A stretch of DNA of 59,659 bases, the filler included, from Pirum gemmata (Eukaryota): NCBI GenBank assembly GCA_002812295.1. It is 10 parts of 10 records of this genome, joined end to end, with 100 filler letters (N's around TTAATTAATTAA, not from the genome) between each part and the next. Parts side by side here need not be neighbours in the genome. Positions count along the whole stretch, not along the records: positions 48,501 to 54,007 come from PDIN01000511.1; 9 more parts are not named here. The stretch is one strand, 5' to 3'. Under the pieces are notes generated by a model, which saw only the letters and a program-made list of their open reading frames with translations, had not been told where the DNA came from and ran no database searches. The position numbers were made by a program, and so were the translations under genes. Position 1 is the first letter of the stretch. Each line of letters starts with the position of its first letter. Shown piece by piece: positions 40,471-51,818 of this stretch.

Positions 40471-40568
40471 CAACCAACCAACCAACCAACAAACAAACAA
40501 ACAAACAAAGAAACAAAGCAACCAACCAACAAAGCAAAAAACCAAAAAAATAAAAAACCAAAACAATA

Positions 40569-40985
40569 ATGATTGGATTTACACTGTCATGTGAGCCTCG
40601 CAATATTAGCGTGGCATCAATATTACAAAAACCCTTATTACACCAGCAATTACAACATCAAAAACAACTACAACATAGATTAAAGAATCTAATGTCACTA
40701 AAACAAACACCAATAACACCAGCAGCAGTAACAACTATAACCACAGCTAGACCACCAACGACAGCATCATCACCAACAATAGAAACAACAACAGCAATAA
40801 CAACAACAATCGCACCACTATCACCAACACCACCATCAATACCATCACAACCATCACTATCACCACCTGCAACACAAGTATTAGAACCAGTAACAGCAAA
40901 ATTAGGGACATTGACATCATCATTAGCATCATCATCGTCATCCCCATCACCTCCGTCGTCGTCATCCCCATCACCTCCGTCGTCG

Positions 40986-41020
<35 letters not shown>

Positions 41021-42122
41021 TTCACCATCATTAGTATCAACATCGGCAGTATCGATAACTACAACAACTACAACAACTACAACAAGTGCAACAATTCCAA
41101 CAATTGCAACAAGTGCAACAAGTGCAACAAGCACAGCAGCAACATTAATAGCAACACCAACGACAACGGCAACATTAGCAGCAACAATTTTTCCATTTTC
41201 AGTACCATCTCCAGATTCAACCACCAAATCATCAAACAATTTCAAACAATCTTGTAAGTCTTGTAAGTCTTCCTCCGAATTACATAATTCCAGTCAAAAA
41301 TCATCATCCAAACAACTTCGTAAGTCTTTCTCATCAGGAAAAAGGGTAGGGTTAGATAATAACAAAAGCAACACTTATATTAATAGTAATGAAAATAAGC
41401 CAGAAACATTAACAACCTTAAAAACATCGGCAACATCATTGGAAAATGTAGACTCAACAAGTTCTTATATCGAGTTGGCAGAGCCAGTTTGTTCTCTTTC
41501 ATCTTTTTCAAAACAAAAAGGACGTTGTGCTAGTCCACCTAATAGTCCGCCAAGCACTGCTACTATCAAACGATCCAAAAGTTTAAAGGGAAAATATAAA
41601 ATAATATTAGGTAAAGGTAACAGCCATCGTAAGAATTATAAAAAGGATAACATTAGTAATGATAACATTAATGATATTGATAACGGTAGAAACGTTAAAA
41701 GTAATAGTGGTGTAAATATTCGAACTCTTTCTTTGTGTGATAGCAATATCTTAAACCAAGTAATCGACCCACCAAGACCTTGTTCGATGACTTTACCCAG
41801 ATATGTTTCTTTCGAAGACGTGAATAATTATATGAGGGAAGAACAGGAAGAAACACAAGACTGTCAAGAACAGGCCCAGGAGCAGTTTAGTCATAAAGAA
41901 GAACACCAACATCAACTAGAACCTAAGCATGAAATTGAACATGAACATTCACAAGAACATGAACATAAACATAAACATGGATATGTACAAGGACAAGGAC
42001 AAGGACAAGGACAAGAAGAATATTATAATCAACAAAAATTCGAAGGTGAACCAAAACCTTTCGTGGATCTGGAAGAAAGAATGTTTCGTAGTTTGTTAGC
42101 AACATTTGATACTTTGGTTTAA
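40569..42122 (+). CDS. Ser/Thr/Pro-rich disordered hypothetical protein, 517 aa
   Basis: Long ORF, partly low-complexity, with non-repetitive stretches and an ordered-looking C-terminus (PFVDLEERMFRSLLATFDTLV). Confidence 0.5.
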
Positions 42123-42847: not shown

Positions 42848-42947
42848 NNNNNNNNNNNNNNNNNNNNNNNNNNNNNNNNNNNNNNNNNNNNTTAATTAAT
42901 TAANNNNNNNNNNNNNNNNNNNNNNNNNNNNNNNNNNNNNNNNNNNN
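42848..42947. other. Artificial scaffold linker
   Basis: 44N-TTAATTAATTAA-44N. Confidence 0.95.
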
Positions 42948-44356: not shown

Positions 44357-46114
44357 TTATACATCCACATTTAAAGCATTGGTGGATTCATACACACCGC
44401 TTTCAAATAATGGGTTTTGATCACTTGGGTTGGTAATTTCATCAAAACTACCATTTGCCGTTTTAGTACTCGCAGATTGTTTCCAAAAGTAAGCGCCCGC
44501 CAAAGCAGCTGCCCCTAATACTGCTGCACCTGCTGCGGCTCCACCTGCAATAGCTGCAACATTAACCCCATCATCTTCGTTCGTAACAGGTACAGGACAC
44601 GGAACTGTACAGTTAGAGACTTCCTCGCCTTCGGGACATATACTAGTTGAGGAACCTTCGATTATTAAACGAGTGCGCAATTGTTCTCCTTCACCACATG
44701 TGCCATTAATAACTGCACAACTTGACCATTCACCCCATTCATTACTTACACAAGGTTCGCATACAATATTACAGTCCTGTCTTTGTTCATTACCAGGACA
44801 TTCTTCAGGAAAATGACCTTGTTCAAGAATATTTCTTTCACGTTTTTGTTCACCATTACCACAATCAGCATTATTAGACAACAAACAGACTGACCATTCG
44901 GCCCACTCCGTCATTGTACACGGAATACAAGGAGAGTCACAAGTCTGAGTTTCAGCAACAGGGGGACATTCTTCAGGTTTGGATCCTACTTCCTTGATTG
45001 TTCTTTCTCTTATTTGTGTACCATTGCCACAAATTTCGTTTGGCACACACTGGGTCCATTCCGACCAAGCTGAAACACTACAAGGAACACAAGGTTTTTC
45101 GCATGGTTCGGCTTCCGTTAAATCAGGGCATTCATCAGGATAAGAACCAGTTTCCAAAATTGATCTTTCTTTTTTTCTTGTTCCACTACCACAAACATCA
45201 TCAGTTTTACATTCACTCCATTGACTCCAACCACTTACAGAACAAGGAATGCACTCGATGTTACAATCTTTTTCTTCATCCAAAGCAGGGCACTCTTTTC
45301 CATTATTTTCTTGTTCAATAGTAATTGTTCTACTTCTTTTTTGTGTACCGCTACCGCAAACTTGTCCTGTTTGTAGCCCACAAGTACTCCAAGTAGACCA
45401 TTGTGTAACACCACAGTTAATGGCACATATTTTGTTACTGATACCTTCAATTTGTTCAAAAATAGAGTCAAAATCATCAGAATAAAAAATATTATCATTT
45501 GAGCCAGTTATTTCCCGAAGTTGATTTAAATCAACATTGCCAATCGCTAATGCAAGAATTTCATAATCATGGTTTCTTCTGAGATTTTTACCTACATCCA
45601 CAGCGTTATCAGTCGCGGCACCGTCGGTTAAAATTATCAATACTTTTGGAACACTTTGCCTGCTAGGAACTCTGTTCCCTTTACTAAAAACGTCTTTATG
45701 AACTTTTTCCATTGCTTCTCCTAACTCTGTTCCTTGGTATAAGTCATCTTCATTATATCTAATTGAATTAAGTTCTGCCGTTAATTTTGATTTTACGTAC
45801 GATTCGTCCTGAGTGAATTTGCTTTCAATTTTTGTTTTAGAATTGAACGAAGTAAAAGCAATATTGGTTTGTTCTTTCCCAATAGTTAAGCCATCCATAA
45901 CGATGCTAACAAACTCTTTCATGGTAGTAAAACGGTCATTAGCTAAGTTAATATCCCTCTTACCAGAGCCAGGCTTCATAGATATACTTCCACTTTTGTC
46001 AAATATAAAATTTACATCAGCAACCAAGTCACATTCATCCGTTACTTGCGCGCCGACTGTCATAATATAGGCCATGCACAACACAGCAATTATAGATTCT
46101 AAAAATGAAACCAT
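44357..46114 (-). CDS. Type I membrane adhesin: signal peptide, vWA (MIDAS), 5x TSP1, TM, NPLF tail; 585 aa
   Basis: DKSGS...GT...LTDG MIDAS; five CxxxxWxxWxxC...CGxG.xRxR repeats; Gly/Ala-rich TM; tail DQNPLFESGVYESTNAL. Confidence 0.9.
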   Translation of the reverse strand: MVSFLESIIAVLCMAYIMTVGAQVTDECDLVADVNFIFDKSGSISMKPGSGKRDINLANDRFTTMKEFVSIVMDGLTIGKEQTNIAFTSFNSKTKIESKFTQDESYVKSKLTAELNSIRYNEDDLYQGTELGEAMEKVHKDVFSKGNRVPSRQSVPKVLIILTDGAATDNAVDVGKNLRRNHDYEILALAIGNVDLNQLREITGSNDNIFYSDDFDSIFEQIEGISNKICAINCGVTQWSTWSTCGLQTGQVCGSGTQKRSRTITIEQENNGKECPALDEEKDCNIECIPCSVSGWSQWSECKTDDVCGSGTRKKERSILETGSYPDECPDLTEAEPCEKPCVPCSVSAWSEWTQCVPNEICGNGTQIRERTIKEVGSKPEECPPVAETQTCDSPCIPCTMTEWAEWSVCLLSNNADCGNGEQKRERNILEQGHFPEECPGNEQRQDCNIVCEPCVSNEWGEWSSCAVINGTCGEGEQLRTRLIIEGSSTSICPEGEEVSNCTVPCPVPVTNEDDGVNVAAIAGGAAAGAAVLGAAALAGAYFWKQSASTKTANGSFDEITNPSDQNPLFESGVYESTNALNVDV

Positions 46115-48400: not shown

Positions 48401-48500
48401 NNNNNNNNNNNNNNNNNNNNNNNNNNNNNNNNNNNNNNNNNNNNTTAATTAATTAANNNNNNNNNNNNNNNNNNNNNNNNNNNNNNNNNNNNNNNNNNNN
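48401..48500. other. Artificial scaffold linker
   Basis: 44N-TTAATTAATTAA-44N. Confidence 0.95.
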
Positions 48501-48650: not shown

Positions 48651-49737
48651 CAAGGAAACTTTCTTCTTTCAAAAAACGCGCCCAGTATATATTCAGTATG
48701 TATTCCTTTGACATCGAATTTTCAGTAGAACCGCTTAAAATAATTGGAGCTCCTTCGTGTCCAAGTGTATTGATGCTGTTTTCTATTATCTTCATATACA
48801 TTTCATGGGTAGGTTTGTTTTTCATGTAACCAAAAAAAAAATTGGTATTTTCTTTATAATCATAGTCAATGTGGTCTGATTTAAAGCTAGACAATGCATA
48901 TAAACATATATTCGTATTAAATTCCTGTTCACCATTGATAACTACTACGAGCTTGCGACAAAGAGTATTAAATAAAGGAGTTGGTTTAAAGGAAGGAGAA
49001 GAAGTGTATTCTTGGCAAAAGTCTAAAATTCGTTTCAGTATGCCTTCATGAATAAAGGAGTTTTCGACTAACTCAACCAAATACAGGAAATCTTTTAATA
49101 ATAGAGCATCAGATACTTCTTGGTGTAATATTTCTTCAGGTAAAGCTGTTTTACTCTTGTGGTATGATTTAACAAAGCAACGTGTCAAATCCAATCTTGA
49201 AGCCTTAAAGTAGAATTTTTTTTAGAAAAATAGTGATCAAAGAAGGTTTTCCCTTGTTGTTGTTGTTGAAGTAATGAAAAAATAACAACCACAATTATAA
49301 ACACAGCCATAGTCATAATCAAAAATAAGAAACAATAAGAAACAATAATGTTAACCACAATGATAATCATAATGTCATTAACGTTAAAAATAATGTTAAA
49401 AATAATGAACACTAAGTTTACTAATATCAGTAAAAACAACAATGAAAAACACACAAAATAGCACAAGTAAAGATCCCACTCCTTATCTAAAAACCACAAA
49501 TATATATTTGTATATATAAAGGAGAAGCCAAAAAAAACTTACGTTTCGCAAAAAATGGTAAAATTCTAATTCGATTTTTCTAGAAAAAACAATTCCATTT
49601 TTATGTAAAAGAAGAAAGTTTTCAATAAAACCCATCAAGTCAGTTTGACTTCTGGAGGTAGACTGAATAGTAGAACGCAAATACTCTTCAAAAATAGCAC
49701 TGTATTGATTTGGATTTATCTTAAGTTTACGAATAAT
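48651..49737 (-). CDS. Two exons (49737-49543, 49203-48651) of an unidentified helical protein
   Basis: TAG|IIRKLKINP...HFLRN|GTAAGT joins AAG|ASRLDLTRCF... in phase 0; the second exon ends at a |GTAAG donor. Confidence 0.6.
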
Positions 49738-49948
49738 CTAAAAATCGAAATGTAAAACAATATACTTTTAATAATAATAAAAAAACCAAGAACGAAATAA
49801 TCAGAGAAGCAAAAGCAACAGAGGTAAAATGACATCTATTTTATAATCTAGCAAGTACAGCGAGTATAACAAGTATAGGAACCATATCAATCATGTTTGA
49901 GAAACGATTATTGGTAATAATAATAATAATAATATCTATAACTATAAC

Positions 49949-50030: not shown

Positions 50031-51818
50031 ATGAAATTTACCTCAGCATGCTTACTATCGGCTTTTTTTTTAGGTCATAATGGTGTTAGTGCCATGAATA
50101 CCTATCAACAAGATGCTGCAAATTGTAATTTAATTGCTGATATTGTCTATCTTTTTGACCAGTCCGGTAGTATTGGTTGGGATAAAAATAACAATAATGT
50201 ACTAAACTTAGGACAAGAACGTATGTTAGACATGCAAGAATTTGTTCAATTCGTCAATGATGAAATTAGTATTGGCGCTAAACAATCCCACGCTGCCTTT
50301 GCAGAGTTCAACGTGGGTTACACTCAGCGTACTGATTTTAGGGGACCTGGAGCTTACAGTAAAGCAACATTAACAGAAGAATTATTTAAAATGGAATATA
50401 CCACAGCAGAAAATAAACCAAATATGAGAACACATCTAGGGGGCGCTTTAAGGCAAATCGACTATGGCGTATTTAAAACTGGGCGAAAAGGTGTACCAAA
50501 AATTATTGTCACTCTAACTGATGGTGATGCTAATGATGAAGATCCTAATGATTATGTCACTAAAGTTGCACCCAAATTACGTGCCGAAGGGTATACTATT
50601 TTAGCTGTGGCTATTGGTAAAGTTAAACAACAGGGTTTAATGGATCTAACTGGTAACTCTAAAAACATCTTTAAGGTTGGTAATTTCAAAGAATTGAAAC
50701 ACAAAATTCAACAATTGTCCAAGAGAATTTGCGAAACACCTCCTCCGCAAAAAGAACAAGATGATAGTTGTGATTTAATTGCTGATGTTGCTTATTTGTT
50801 TGACCAAAGTGGCAGTATCGGTTGGGATCAAAATGGTCAAAACAACTTAAAATTAGGTCAAGCGAGAGTGAAGGAAATGCTAATGTTTGTTAATAAGGTG
50901 AACAAAGAATTAAGTGTGAGCAATGATCAAGCACACATCGCTTTTTCTGAATTTAACACCGAGTACACGCCAATTGCCAGCTTTTCATCCGACGCTACTA
51001 AGGTAAAAACTAACTTGAACAAGTTGGAATATACGGAAAGGGAAAATCAGCCTAACATGAGAACCTTTTTGGGTACGGCTTTGAAGAAAATGGACAGTGG
51101 CTTATTTAAGAGTGCCAGAGCAGGGGTACCAAAAATCATCGTTACCTTAACTGATGGTGATGCTAATGACGAAAAATTTGGTGACCCTCAAAATGCTGTT
51201 TCTATAGTTGCTCCAAAATTGCGTGAAGATGGTTACATTATTCTGGCTGTGGCCATTGGAAATATTAAAGAACAAGGTTTATTAGAGCTGACTGGCGATC
51301 CTTCTAATATATTTAAAGTTAGCGACTTTTCTCAATTGGAAAGTAGAATTCAAGATTTATCCAAGAAACTTTGCAGTCTTAATTGTGAAACATCAGAATG
51401 GGCAGAATGGTCAACTTGTGAGTTACCTTCGGATAATTCCAACAACGCAAACAATACTTGCGGTATGGGTTCCCGAAGTACCTCCCGAGTTGTTACAAAA
51501 GAATCTGCCCACAACGGTTTGAAATGTCCCGCGTTAGATAAAACAGAAGAATGCGAAATCCCTTGTGCCCCCCCACCACCTGTAGAACCACCTGTAGCTG
51601 AACAAAACCCGCCGAGCTCTAACGCAGGTGCCATTGCTGGTGGGGTTATTGGTGGCTTAGCTGCTTTAGCTGGTATCGGTGCTGCGGCGTATATGTATAA
51701 CCGAAATGTTGCTAATCAAAGTCCAGACTTTGAAAATATCAAAATTGAACATCCTTCTGATAACAACCCTCTGTTTCAAAACGGAATGCAAAGTCACAGT
51801 AATCCTATTGCACAGTAA
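50031..51818 (+). CDS. Type I membrane adhesin: signal peptide, 2x vWA (MIDAS), TSP1, Pro-rich stalk, TM, NPLF tail; 595 aa
   Basis: Two DQSGS...RT...LTDG domains; CETSEWAEWSTC...CGMGSRSTSR TSP1; TM AGAIAGGVIGGLAALAGIGAAAY; tail DNNPLFQNGMQSHSNPIAQ. Confidence 0.9.
   Translation: MKFTSACLLSAFFLGHNGVSAMNTYQQDAANCNLIADIVYLFDQSGSIGWDKNNNNVLNLGQERMLDMQEFVQFVNDEISIGAKQSHAAFAEFNVGYTQRTDFRGPGAYSKATLTEELFKMEYTTAENKPNMRTHLGGALRQIDYGVFKTGRKGVPKIIVTLTDGDANDEDPNDYVTKVAPKLRAEGYTILAVAIGKVKQQGLMDLTGNSKNIFKVGNFKELKHKIQQLSKRICETPPPQKEQDDSCDLIADVAYLFDQSGSIGWDQNGQNNLKLGQARVKEMLMFVNKVNKELSVSNDQAHIAFSEFNTEYTPIASFSSDATKVKTNLNKLEYTERENQPNMRTFLGTALKKMDSGLFKSARAGVPKIIVTLTDGDANDEKFGDPQNAVSIVAPKLREDGYIILAVAIGNIKEQGLLELTGDPSNIFKVSDFSQLESRIQDLSKKLCSLNCETSEWAEWSTCELPSDNSNNANNTCGMGSRSTSRVVTKESAHNGLKCPALDKTEECEIPCAPPPPVEPPVAEQNPPSSNAGAIAGGVIGGLAALAGIGAAAYMYNRNVANQSPDFENIKIEHPSDNNPLFQNGMQSHSNPIAQ

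What the first reader, a model, noticed from the sequence alone, without database searches (positions are those of the whole stretch)
50031..51818. TRAP/MIC2-type adhesin with an apicomplexan-like rhomboid TM but an integrin-beta-like tail
Seen: signal peptide, two MIDAS-complete vWA domains, one TSP1, a Pro-rich stalk, a TM beginning AGAIAGGVIGGL, and the tail NPLF-QNGMQSHS-NPIA. Known (from recall): vWA+TSP1+TM is the architecture of apicomplexan gliding adhesins (TRAP, CTRP, MIC2). AGAIAGGVIGGL matches the rhomboid-cleaved TM start of Toxoplasma MIC2/MIC6. Those proteins end in an acidic tail with a subterminal Trp, absent here. The NPxF-x8-NP spacing instead equals integrin beta1 (NPIY-x8-NPKY) and resembles talin-binding Dictyostelium Sib tails. 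Inference: a sheddable adhesin coupled to actin through talin/FERM-type adaptors, combining features of two adhesion systems usually treated separately.
Basis: partly seen in the sequence, partly recalled or inferred. Interest (0 to 1): 0.88.

Follow-up and report, generated by a model that had tools for sequence, protein, structure and literature searches.

The report
Ichthyosporean adhesin with integrin-like tail
A single-celled relative of animals carries an intact gene for a surface adhesion protein whose outer part is built like the TRAP adhesins of malaria parasites, while its short inner tail resembles the integrin-beta tail and is predicted to recruit talin-type adaptors; it belongs to a small family that I did not find described.

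Summary
ORF 50031-51818 (+) is intact and encodes a signal peptide, two vWA domains with MIDAS residues, one TSP1 repeat, a short Pro-rich stalk, one TM helix and a 39-residue tail (NPLF-x8-NPIA).

- **Lineage.** This is not an apicomplexan TRAP/MIC2 member. Its named relatives come from the ichthyosporeans Pirum gemmata, Abeoforma whisleri and Amoebidium parasiticum. A paralogue lies 3.9 kb away in the window.
- **vWA domains.** They score closest to animal collagen-VI/PTMP1-type domains. MIC2 scores no better than the anthrax-toxin receptor or the integrin alpha-M I-domain.
- **TRAP hallmarks.** The acidic tail and the subterminal Trp are both absent.
- **TM start.** The 'MIC2-like' AGAIAGGVIGGL is generic. 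Near-identical strings occur in fungal single-pass proteins, and integrin beta-2 has a similar start.
- **Tail.** This is the real signal. NPx[FY] is present in 13 of 13 family tails, and N follows after exactly 8 residues in 12 of 12. Pfam Integrin_b_cyt is the only recurrent hit (5 of 13 tails; one reaches the curated cutoff). A TM+tail profile retrieves integrin beta-3, beta-1 and beta-7 collinearly (E 0.001-0.007).

Binding to talin, or to any adaptor, is predicted but untested, and so is shedding. The closest concept is Dictyostelium SibA. I rate it a new variant of a known kind, of moderate interest.

The parts
50031..51818 (+). Single-exon CDS of the adhesin (595 aa plus stop), protein P0001
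   Evidence: Contigs of runs X2/X3, which are probably RNA, lie unspliced on 50149-50573, 51162-51402 and 51315-51792.
50031..50093 (+). Predicted signal peptide (residues 1-21, MKFTSACLLSAFFLGHNGVSA)
   Evidence: Read from the sequence; modelled as an N-terminal helix of low pLDDT. No signal-peptide predictor was run.
50139..50696 (+). vWA domain 1 (about residues 37-222); MIDAS residues D43-S45-S47, T134, D164
   Evidence: 70% identical to the single vWA of Pirum P0002.
50784..51344 (+). vWA domain 2 (residues 252-438); DQSGS at 258, TDG at 374
   Evidence: pLDDT above 90.
51384..51569 (+). TSP1 repeat (residues 452-513; WAEW at 457; six Cys)
   Evidence: E 9.1e-8, below the curated cutoff; aligned together with vWA to MIC2/TRAP structures.
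51570..51623 (+). Short Pro-rich stalk (residues 514-531)
   Evidence: low pLDDT.
51624..51698 (+). Transmembrane helix rich in Gly/Ala (residues 532-556, AGAIAGGVIGGLAALAGIGAAAYMY)
   Evidence: helix 542-562. The N-x-x-x-I-A-G-G start is shared by most family members.
51699..51815 (+). Cytoplasmic tail of 39 residues. Only Pfam hit: Integrin_b_cyt, E 0.024, 14.8 bits (below the cutoff of 23.4)
51765..51776 (+). NPLF motif (residues 579-582), conserved as NPx[FY] in 13 of 13 family tails
51801..51812 (+). Distal NPIA (residues 591-594). Only the N, exactly 8 residues after NPx[FY], is conserved (12 of 12)
44357..46114 (-). Paralogue P0003: signal peptide, 1 vWA, 5 TSP1, TM (VAAIAGGAAAG...), tail ...SDQNPLFESGVYESTNALNVDV
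   Evidence: 36% identical to P0001 over vWA+TSR.

Best explanation
The ORF encodes an intact type I membrane protein of a family found in the ichthyosporeans Pirum, Abeoforma and Amoebidium, and its conserved NPx[FY]-x8-N tail is predicted to dock a PTB/FERM adaptor, most likely talin, so that the protein would act as a single-chain, integrin-like substrate adhesion receptor.

Shown here:
- the gene is intact;
- the domains are present;
- the family and its taxa are identified;
- the tail motif and its spacing are conserved;
- the tail has a weak but specific profile resemblance to integrin-beta TM plus cytoplasmic domains.

Inferred:
- the two MIDAS vWA domains and the TSR bind ligands on surfaces or other cells;
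- the Gly/Ala-rich TM may pair with other helices or be cut by an intramembrane protease;
- the tail recruits an adaptor that links to actin in wall-less amoeboid or plasmodial stages.

My odds: surface adhesin family 0.9; the tail read by some PTB-type adaptor 0.6; talin specifically 0.35; rhomboid shedding 0.25.
For: Architecture.

Family. In a HMMER scan of 1.84 billion representatives, 1109 proteins scored E<=0.001 and the best 150 were listed. A script over those plus the window's own proteins found 25 with a C-terminal hydrophobic window. By eye about 17 are real single-pass tails, and 14 of them carry NPx[FY]. Of the 12 members fetched from the databases, 8 are from ichthyosporeans: Pirum gemmata (6: P0013, P0016, P0053, P0089, P0110; P0002), Abeoforma whisleri (1) and Amoebidium parasiticum (1). 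Two more are from metagenomes, and one is from a 14-kb contig of a beetle assembly.

Tail conservation. NP is invariant in 13 of 13 tails, and N follows 8 residues after the motif in 12 of 12 that reach that far. This holds even though the two window paralogues share only 36% ectodomain identity.

Integrin likeness.
- Pfam Integrin_b_cyt is the commonest hit among the 13 TM+tail pieces: 5 of 13, against 2 of 13 for the next family.
- Scores are 24.2 bits for Amoebidium P0131 (cutoff 23.4), then 18.0, 14.8, 13.6 and 13.4.
- The 13-sequence profile, run against 177,635 PDB sequences, gives integrin beta-3 TM+tail E 0.0011, beta-1 0.003, beta-7 0.0066 and a beta-2 tail peptide 0.023.
- 15 of the 60 rows shown are integrin beta chains, aligned collinearly from the TM to the distal N without a gap between NPLY and N.

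Literature.
- Capsaspora integrin-beta NPxF tails recruit human talin, and an NPxA mutant does not (PMC6450878, passages).
- SibA, with a vWA domain and two NPxY motifs, is treated as the functional equivalent of beta-integrin and is thought to connect talin-A to the membrane (PMC12686525, passages).
- Creolimax, another ichthyosporean, has a nearly complete integrin adhesome that is up-regulated in its amoeboid stage (PMC4739763, passages).
- Abeoforma forms amoebae and plasmodia (PMC11286789, passages).
Against: - For this protein the Integrin_b_cyt score (13-14.8 bits) is well below the curated 23.4, and 8 of 13 tails give no hit.
- All hits cover only profile positions 23-44. The membrane-proximal HDR(K/R)E-type segment of integrin beta is absent.
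- The aromatic residue of the distal NxxY is missing in 10 of 12 tails.
- A Trp 8 residues before the motif's aromatic, which I recall as important for talin F3 binding, occurs only in P0128.
- APP, another TM+NPxY protein, also scores E about 0.1. Part of the signal is therefore generic 'TM plus NPxY'.
- A language-model search with the TM+tail alone gave only chance-level neighbours (0.81: syndecan/neurexin-type and MUC1), with no integrin.
- Whether this organism has talin, kindlin or integrins could not be tested, because no genome is held.
- Expression rests on a few contigs from runs whose RNA nature is a guess.
Confidence: 0.5

Rival explanations
1. Endocytic or engulfment receptor. The NPx[FY] motif would be read by Dab/Numb/ARH/GULP-type PTB adaptors to drive clathrin-dependent internalisation of ligands captured by the vWA/TSR ectodomain. 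This follows the way LDLR-family and CED-1-type receptors use NPxY (recalled knowledge).
For: NPx[FY] is conserved in 13 of 13 tails. APP, whose NPTY binds Dab/Fe65-type PTB domains (recalled), also matches the profile (E about 0.1). The talin-typical Trp at -8 is absent from 12 of 13 tails.
Against: The canonical sorting signal has an aromatic residue two places before the Asn ([FY]xNPx[YF], recalled). In the 13 tails that position is D (7), N (3), R, A or S, and never aromatic. The conserved N exactly 8 residues downstream, with an S/T-rich spacer, is an integrin-beta feature and not an LDLR one.
Confidence: 0.22
2. The tail motif has another or no adaptor role (for example a trafficking signal), and the protein mainly serves as a shed or wall-associated matrix or adhesive component. 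Its ectodomain would be released by intramembrane or juxtamembrane cleavage.
For: The helix-destabilising Ala/Gly-rich outer half of the TM is conserved. Its best PDB match is the TM of Toxoplasma AMA1 (E 7e-5). Shedding of AMA1 depends on rhomboid ROM4, and rhomboids cut between small residues in Ala/Gly-containing TMs (PMC2858701, passages). Integrin ectodomains were detected in the Creolimax secretome (PMC4739763, passages). The best structural relative, PTMP1, is a secreted byssus matrix protein.
Against: Such TM starts are generic: fungal single-pass proteins, HLA class I, ErbB4 and integrin beta-2 all match. Strict conservation of a cytoplasmic motif with fixed spacing across paralogues of 36% identity argues for a cytoplasmic reader.
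Confidence: 0.18
3. A genuine homologue of apicomplexan TRAP/MIC2 gliding adhesins, by shared ancestry or gene transfer. It would be driven rearwards by an actomyosin motor and released by a rhomboid.
For: The order signal peptide - vWA - TSR - TM is the same. The nearest ESM-Atlas cluster by features is apicomplexan TRAP (0.91). MIC2 and PvTRAP structures align over vWA plus TSR.
Against: The hallmarks decisive for TRAP-family membership, an acidic tail and a subterminal Trp (PMC9019593, passages), are both absent. With vWA2+TSR alone, MIC2 scores 29.6 bits, against 71.5 for PTMP1 and 53.6 for collagen VI. That puts MIC2 level with ANTXR1 (27) and integrin alpha-M (25), and Plasmodium TRAP is not listed at E<=1. 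The four best non-family representatives I looked up are animal proteins: collagen-VI-like chains of a fish, a shark and Hydra, and an amphioxus protein. vWA+TSP1 clusters also exist in diatoms.
Confidence: 0.05
4. The scaffold is a contaminant from another organism, such as a gut parasite, in the assembly.
For: One family member (P0128) and a related fragment sit on small contigs of a beetle assembly and cluster with metagenome proteins. Sequences of this family can therefore turn up as contaminants elsewhere.
Against: The window is 28% GC and full of simple repeats, with a LINE-type element. That matches the published description of the AT-biased, repeat-rich Pirum and Abeoforma genomes, which were obtained from axenic cultures (PMC5560861, passages). 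Family members occur in three separately sequenced ichthyosporeans. Three runs labelled with the same organism hold the gene.
Confidence: 0.02

Closest known systems
Dictyostelium SibA-E (Sib, 'similar to integrin beta')
   Same: A non-integrin type I adhesion receptor with an extracellular vWA domain, one TM and a short tail carrying NPxY-type motifs. It is treated as the functional equivalent of beta-integrin and is thought to connect talin-A to the membrane (PMC12686525, passages; 10.1101/2020.04.29.069435, passages).
   Different: It comes from a different supergroup (Amoebozoa versus Holozoa). From recall, Sib proteins are much longer, carry bacterial-type repeats, and have no TSP1. Sequence relatedness was not tested, because no Sib sequence was available from a tool. 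Here only one full NPx[FY] is present.
Integrin beta TM plus cytoplasmic domain (Pfam PF08725)
   Same: NPx[FY], an 8-residue S/T-rich spacer, then N. The TM start N-x-A-A-I-x-G-G resembles that of beta-2. The alignment runs collinearly from TM to distal N, at E 0.001-0.007.
   Different: The ectodomain is a generic VWA (PF00092) plus TSP1, not a betaI/PSI/hybrid/I-EGF ectodomain. No HDR(K/R)E-type membrane-proximal segment is present, and the distal aromatic is usually missing. The score for this protein is below the Pfam cutoff. No alpha partner is implied.
Apicomplexan TRAP family (TRAP, MIC2, CTRP, TLP)
   Same: Signal peptide, MIDAS vWA, TSR, a single TM with small residues at its outer end, and a short tail.
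   Different: The tail is neither acidic nor Trp-bearing, so the decisive family hallmark is not met (PMC9019593). The lineage is holozoan. The vWA domains are closer to animal matrix vWA domains.
Mussel PTMP1 and collagen VI N-/C-terminal vWA arrays
   Same: Best sequence and fold matches for the tandem vWA part: PTMP1 E 2.6e-21 and Foldseek 4e-31; collagen VI alpha-3 E 3.8e-20. The four best non-family database hits I looked up are animal proteins, three of them collagen-VI-like chains.
   Different: Those are secreted matrix proteins without a TSR-TM-tail module.

Membership tests
Apicomplexan TRAP family | Signal peptide, vWA and/or TSR ectodomain, TM near the C-terminus, short tail | tested here: met
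Apicomplexan TRAP family | Acidic cytoplasmic tail (hallmark per PMC9019593, passages) | tested here: not met
   4 D/E against 2 K/R in 39 residues
Apicomplexan TRAP family | Subterminal tryptophan in the tail (hallmark per PMC9019593, passages) | tested here: not met
   No W in the tail. Among the 13 family tails only P0128 has a W, and it is not subterminal.
Apicomplexan TRAP family | Rhomboid cleavage within the TM | not testable with these tools
   A small-residue AIAGG start is present, but the same start occurs in fungal, HLA and integrin TMs.
Apicomplexan TRAP family | Closest sequence relatives are apicomplexan TRAP/MIC2 proteins | tested here: not met
   Named relatives are ichthyosporean. 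The non-family hits looked up are animal proteins. MIC2 scores 29.6 bits against 71.5 for PTMP1.
Integrin beta subunit | betaI-domain ectodomain with PSI and Cys-rich stalk (10.1101/2020.04.29.069435, passages) | tested here: not met
   Pfam finds VWA (PF00092), VWA_2 and TSP1 only.
Integrin beta subunit | Cytoplasmic domain PF08725 at the curated cutoff (23.4 bits) | tested here: not met
   P0001 scores 13.0-14.8 bits. One relative, P0131, reaches 24.2 bits as a fragment and 20.2 bits full-length.
Integrin beta subunit | Proximal NPxY/F plus distal NxxY (PMC6450878, passages) | tested here: inconclusive
   NPLF-x8-NPIA. The spacing and the N are conserved in 12 of 12 tails, but the distal aromatic is present in only 2 of 12.
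Integrin beta subunit | Charged membrane-proximal alpha-interacting motif (LLxxxHDRKE; 10.1101/2020.04.29.069435, passages) | tested here: not met
   The tail starts NRNVANQSPDFEN. Pfam hits cover profile positions 23-44 only.
Sib-type receptors (Dictyostelium) | vWA ectodomain, one TM, tail with NPxY motifs | tested here: met
   This shows resemblance of design only.
Sib-type receptors (Dictyostelium) | Sequence homology to Sib proteins; binding of talin | not tested
   No Sib or talin sequence was available from a tool, and no genome of the organism is held.
Ichthyosporean vWA-TSP1-NPx[FY] family (unnamed; defined here) | Signal peptide, 1-3 vWA, 1-8 TSP1, Gly/Ala-rich TM, 27-51-residue tail with NPx[FY]-x8-N | tested here: met
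   closest member is Pirum P0002, 70% identical over vWA1.

The most novel reading that the evidence does not exclude
The TM-plus-tail cassette is truly homologous to that of integrin beta and was shuffled onto a vWA/TSR ectodomain in ichthyosporeans. The result would be a single-chain 'mini-integrin' that couples to talin without an alpha subunit. In that case the talin-docking module was a mobile part, reused on several ectodomains in unicellular relatives of animals before integrins became the dominant matrix receptors.
Probability: 0.25. Interest if true: 0.75.

Novelty: new variant of a known kind. Interest (0 to 1): 0.55.

Why it matters
Talin is older and more widespread than integrins. 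Which receptors it uses in unicellular relatives of animals is an open question, raised explicitly in PMC12686525 (passages).

This family offers a concrete, compact candidate in Holozoa. It has a MIDAS/TSR ectodomain joined to a tail that keeps the integrin-beta motif and its spacing.

The idea can be tested directly with an existing assay: tail clustering with an NPxF-to-NPxA control, as was done for Capsaspora integrin tails in PMC6450878.

It also shows that the 'TRAP architecture' is not an apicomplexan invention. It is a recurrent domain combination that can be wired to different cytoskeletal couplers.

Tried and rejected
- Own-genome search for talin, kindlin and rhomboids: no genome is held.
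- First word-indexed homologue search: only self and P0002 (2 of 7999 candidates).
- TM+tail region search: no MIC2 and no integrin. The best hits were fungal single-pass proteins. This argues against TM specificity but is weak evidence, because candidates must share exact words.
- Third homologue search, with the 13-tail profile and longer proteins: only 8 known family members, so no other ectodomain carrying this tail was found.
- Full-text search for the TM string: 0 papers.
- Searches for a published description of this family found none: Pirum+thrombospondin, ichthyospor+vWA/TSP1/TRAP, ichthyospor+NPxY, Creolimax+thrombospondin/VWA/integrin, Abeoforma+integrin+adhesion. Supplements were not read.
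- Single-sequence fold: unusable, pLDDT 35.
- ESM-Atlas search with the TM+tail alone: chance-level neighbours.
- Sequencing runs: no RNA holder is listed. X2 and X3 look like RNA, because their contigs end with unlike sequence at 49542 and 49738 as at splice sites, but that is a guess.
- Complex prediction was not used, because no talin or PTB sequence of this lineage was available.
Full report
**1. What is there.**
The window is AT-rich (about 28% GC) eukaryotic DNA with simple repeats and scaffold gaps.

Positions 50031-51818 (+) form one open frame of 595 codons, ATG to TAA, with an in-frame stop just upstream.
- Pfam finds two VWA domains (E 6.2e-45) and one TSP1_spondin repeat at residues 452-509. 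That repeat scores E 9.1e-8 and 32.7 bits, under the model's cutoff of 41.
- DxSxS lies at residues 43 and 258, TDG at 163 and 374, and WAEW at 457.
- The MIDAS threonine aligns with that of mussel PTMP1.

A single-sequence fold failed (pLDDT 35). A fold on a 50-sequence alignment gave mean pLDDT 82, with both vWA domains above 90 and a three-stranded TSR.

Foldseek against the PDB ranks PTMP1 first (4e-31). Collagen VI, ANTXR2, TgMIC2 and PvTRAP follow; the last two align over about 288 columns, i.e. vWA plus TSR.

**2. Whose gene it is.**
No genome is held for the window.

The only close relative in the word-indexed search was P0002. It is 70% identical over vWA1 and 53% over vWA2+TSR.

A full HMMER scan of 1.84 billion representatives gave 1109 hits at E<=0.001. 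Exact look-ups named the relevant ones:
- P0013, P0016, P0053, P0089, P0110, P0068 and P0076 are Pirum gemmata proteins. P0002 carries the same 'Pgem' EukProt label.
- P0020 is Abeoforma whisleri.
- P0131 is Amoebidium parasiticum.
- The four best non-family hits looked up are animal proteins: collagen-VI-like chains of a fish, a shark and Hydra, and an amphioxus protein.

Published passages describe the Pirum and Abeoforma genomes as unusually AT-biased, repeat-rich and derived from axenic cultures (PMC5560861). That fits the window and argues against contamination.

I therefore take the organism to be an ichthyosporean of the Pirum/Abeoforma group. The species was not established.

**3. A family, and a paralogue next door.**
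ORF 44357-46114 (-) encodes P0003, with a signal peptide, one vWA, five TSP1 repeats, a TM and the tail ...SDQNPLFESGVYESTNALNVDV.

A script ran over the 150 listed representatives plus the window's proteins. It found 25 with a C-terminal hydrophobic window. By eye about 8 of these are buried vWA strands, which leaves about 17 real single-pass tails. Fourteen of the 17 carry NPx[FY]. The three without it are an amphioxus protein, a Peranema protein and an unnamed metagenome protein that has an acidic, Trp-containing tail.

Thirteen of the fourteen were aligned (A2). I left out P0078, a protein with 33 TSP1 repeats and a 69-residue tail.
- NP is invariant in all 13.
- In the 12 tails that extend far enough, an Asn follows exactly 8 residues after the motif.
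The aromatic of an NxxY is present in 2 of 12.
- Background NPx[FY] frequency in the other stored proteins is 2.6e-4 per residue.

Full-length Pfam scans show that all ichthyosporean members have 1-3 VWA plus 1-8 TSP1.

**4. Is the tail integrin-like?**
The tail of P0001 scanned alone has one Pfam hit among 24,736 models: Integrin_b_cyt, at E 0.024-0.085 and 13-14.8 bits, against a cutoff of 23.4.

Across the 13 TM+tail pieces, Integrin_b_cyt is the commonest family. It is hit by 5 of 13, and the next families by 2 of 13. Scores are 24.2 bits for Amoebidium P0131, 18.0 for P0016, and 13.4-13.6 for P0013 and P0128. Eight tails give no hit. All matches cover profile positions 23-44 only.

The 13-sequence profile was run against 177,635 PDB sequences:

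| Match | E-value | Extent of the match |
|---|---|---|
| Toxoplasma AMA1 | 7e-5 | TM only |
| Integrin beta-3 TM+tail | 0.0011 | TM end to distal N |
| HLA class I | 0.002 | TM only |
| Integrin beta-1 | 0.003 | TM to distal N |
| Integrin beta-7 | 0.0066 | TM to distal N |
| Integrin beta-2 tail peptide | 0.023 | tail only |
| APP | about 0.1 | TM to NPTY |

Fifteen of the 60 rows shown are integrin beta chains, and their matches run from the TM through to the distal N.

With a three-sequence profile, the beta-2 TM start (NIAAIVGGTVAG) aligned with the family's N-V-A-A-I-A-G-G start.

The resemblance is therefore specific but short and weak. It concerns TM and tail together. Part of it is generic 'TM plus NPxY'. 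A language-model search with the TM+tail alone showed nothing.

**5. Is the TM apicomplexan-like?**
The region search returned fungal single-pass proteins carrying SSNVGAIAGGVIGGLAVIA and SSNAGAIAGGVVGG. Together with the HLA, ErbB4 and integrin matches, this shows that the string is a common type of TM start.

Rhomboids do prefer Ala/Gly-containing, helix-unstable TMs, and MIC TMs are cut between small residues (PMC2858701, passages). Shedding therefore remains possible, but the motif is no evidence of kinship with MIC2.

I could not check the exact MIC2/MIC6 sequence.

**6. Is it a TRAP?**
The review PMC9019593 (passages) states that an acidic tail with a subterminal Trp is decisive for TRAP-family membership. 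Both are absent here.

With vWA2+TSR alone as the query, the scores were:

| PDB match | Bits |
|---|---|
| PTMP1 | 71.5 |
| Collagen VI alpha-3 | 53.6 |
| TgMIC2 | 29.6 |
| ANTXR1 | 27 |
| Integrin alpha-M | 25 |
| Plasmodium TRAP | not listed at E<=1 |

The ESM-Atlas neighbour by features is a TRAP cluster (0.91), followed by a diatom vWA+TSP1 cluster (0.80). This reflects shared architecture.

I conclude that the architecture is TRAP-like by domain combination, most likely independently assembled.

**7. Mechanism.**
Best-supported reading: a type I adhesion receptor whose MIDAS vWA domains and TSR bind external ligands. Its conserved tail would be read by a PTB/FERM adaptor, most likely talin, which would couple it to actin in wall-less stages.

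This step is inferred from several sources:
- the motif conservation reported above;
- Capsaspora integrin NPxF tails recruiting talin in an NPxF-dependent way (PMC6450878);
- SibA as a precedent for a non-integrin vWA receptor coupled to talin (PMC12686525);
- amoeboid and plasmodial forms in this clade (PMC11286789).

Against it:
- the scores are sub-threshold;
- the membrane-proximal integrin segment is missing;
- there is no Trp at -8 in 12 of 13 tails;
- it is unknown whether talin is present in this organism.

An endocytic or engulfment adaptor is the main rival. The usual aromatic two places before the Asn is never present, which weighs somewhat against that rival.

**8. Expression.**
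Runs X2 and X3 carry the same organism label as the DNA holder X1. They hold unspliced pieces of the ORF at 50149-50485, 50353-50573, 51162-51402 and 51315-51792. They also hold a neighbouring piece, 49542-49738, whose contigs continue into unlike sequence at both ends, as spliced RNA would. Their RNA nature is a guess, so this is only a hint.

**9. Verdict.**
This is a real, intact gene of a previously undescribed, ichthyosporean-centred family. My five literature searches found no description of it. It combines a common vWA/TSR ectodomain with an integrin-beta-like TM-tail module.

Conceptually it is a holozoan counterpart of Dictyostelium Sib proteins, so I class it as a new variant of a known kind. 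The integrin-tail insight stands, and is now better founded.

Noticed in passing
window 25827-28826 (-) and 28944-31214 (-): A LINE-type retroelement: an ORF of 999 codons with an endonuclease/exonuclease/phosphatase domain and a reverse-transcriptase domain. It is preceded by a 756-codon ORF without a Pfam hit, possibly ORF1.
   Followed up: no
window 9088-10692 (-): An ammonium transporter gene (Pfam Ammonium_transp, E 4.5e-89) in one open frame of 534 codons.
   Followed up: no
window 49542-49738: Contigs of runs X2 and X3 cover this stretch and continue into unlike sequence at 49542 (both runs) and 49738 (X3). This looks like an internal exon of a spliced transcript of about 2.9 kb, lying between the two adhesin genes.
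   Followed up: partly
P0128 (871 aa) and P0186, labelled Zophobas morio: A vWA + TM protein with the most integrin-like tail of the set (FRAWEANINPMYKSSLQSTDNNLIS, with Trp at -8) sits on a 13,955-bp contig of a beetle assembly. A related fragment on a 705-bp contig clusters with metagenome proteins. It is either a genuine insect gene or DNA from a gut eukaryote in that assembly.
   Followed up: partly
P0141 (1626 aa, metagenome): A TSP1-rich type I protein with an acidic tail containing Trp (…EDEAAEDSEAEEEVVDTHW…). It is the only TRAP-style tail among the 150 best representatives.
   Followed up: no
window 40554-42122 (+): A 522-codon open frame rich in Ser/Thr/Pro runs, with an acidic/His-rich end and no Pfam hit. 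It may be a mucin-like or low-complexity protein, or not a gene at all.
   Followed up: no
window, e.g. 6122-6221, 13759-13858, 42848-42947, 48401-48500: Eight pairs of 44-N runs, each pair separated by exactly 12 bases. This is a regular masking or scaffolding pattern, not biology.
   Followed up: no
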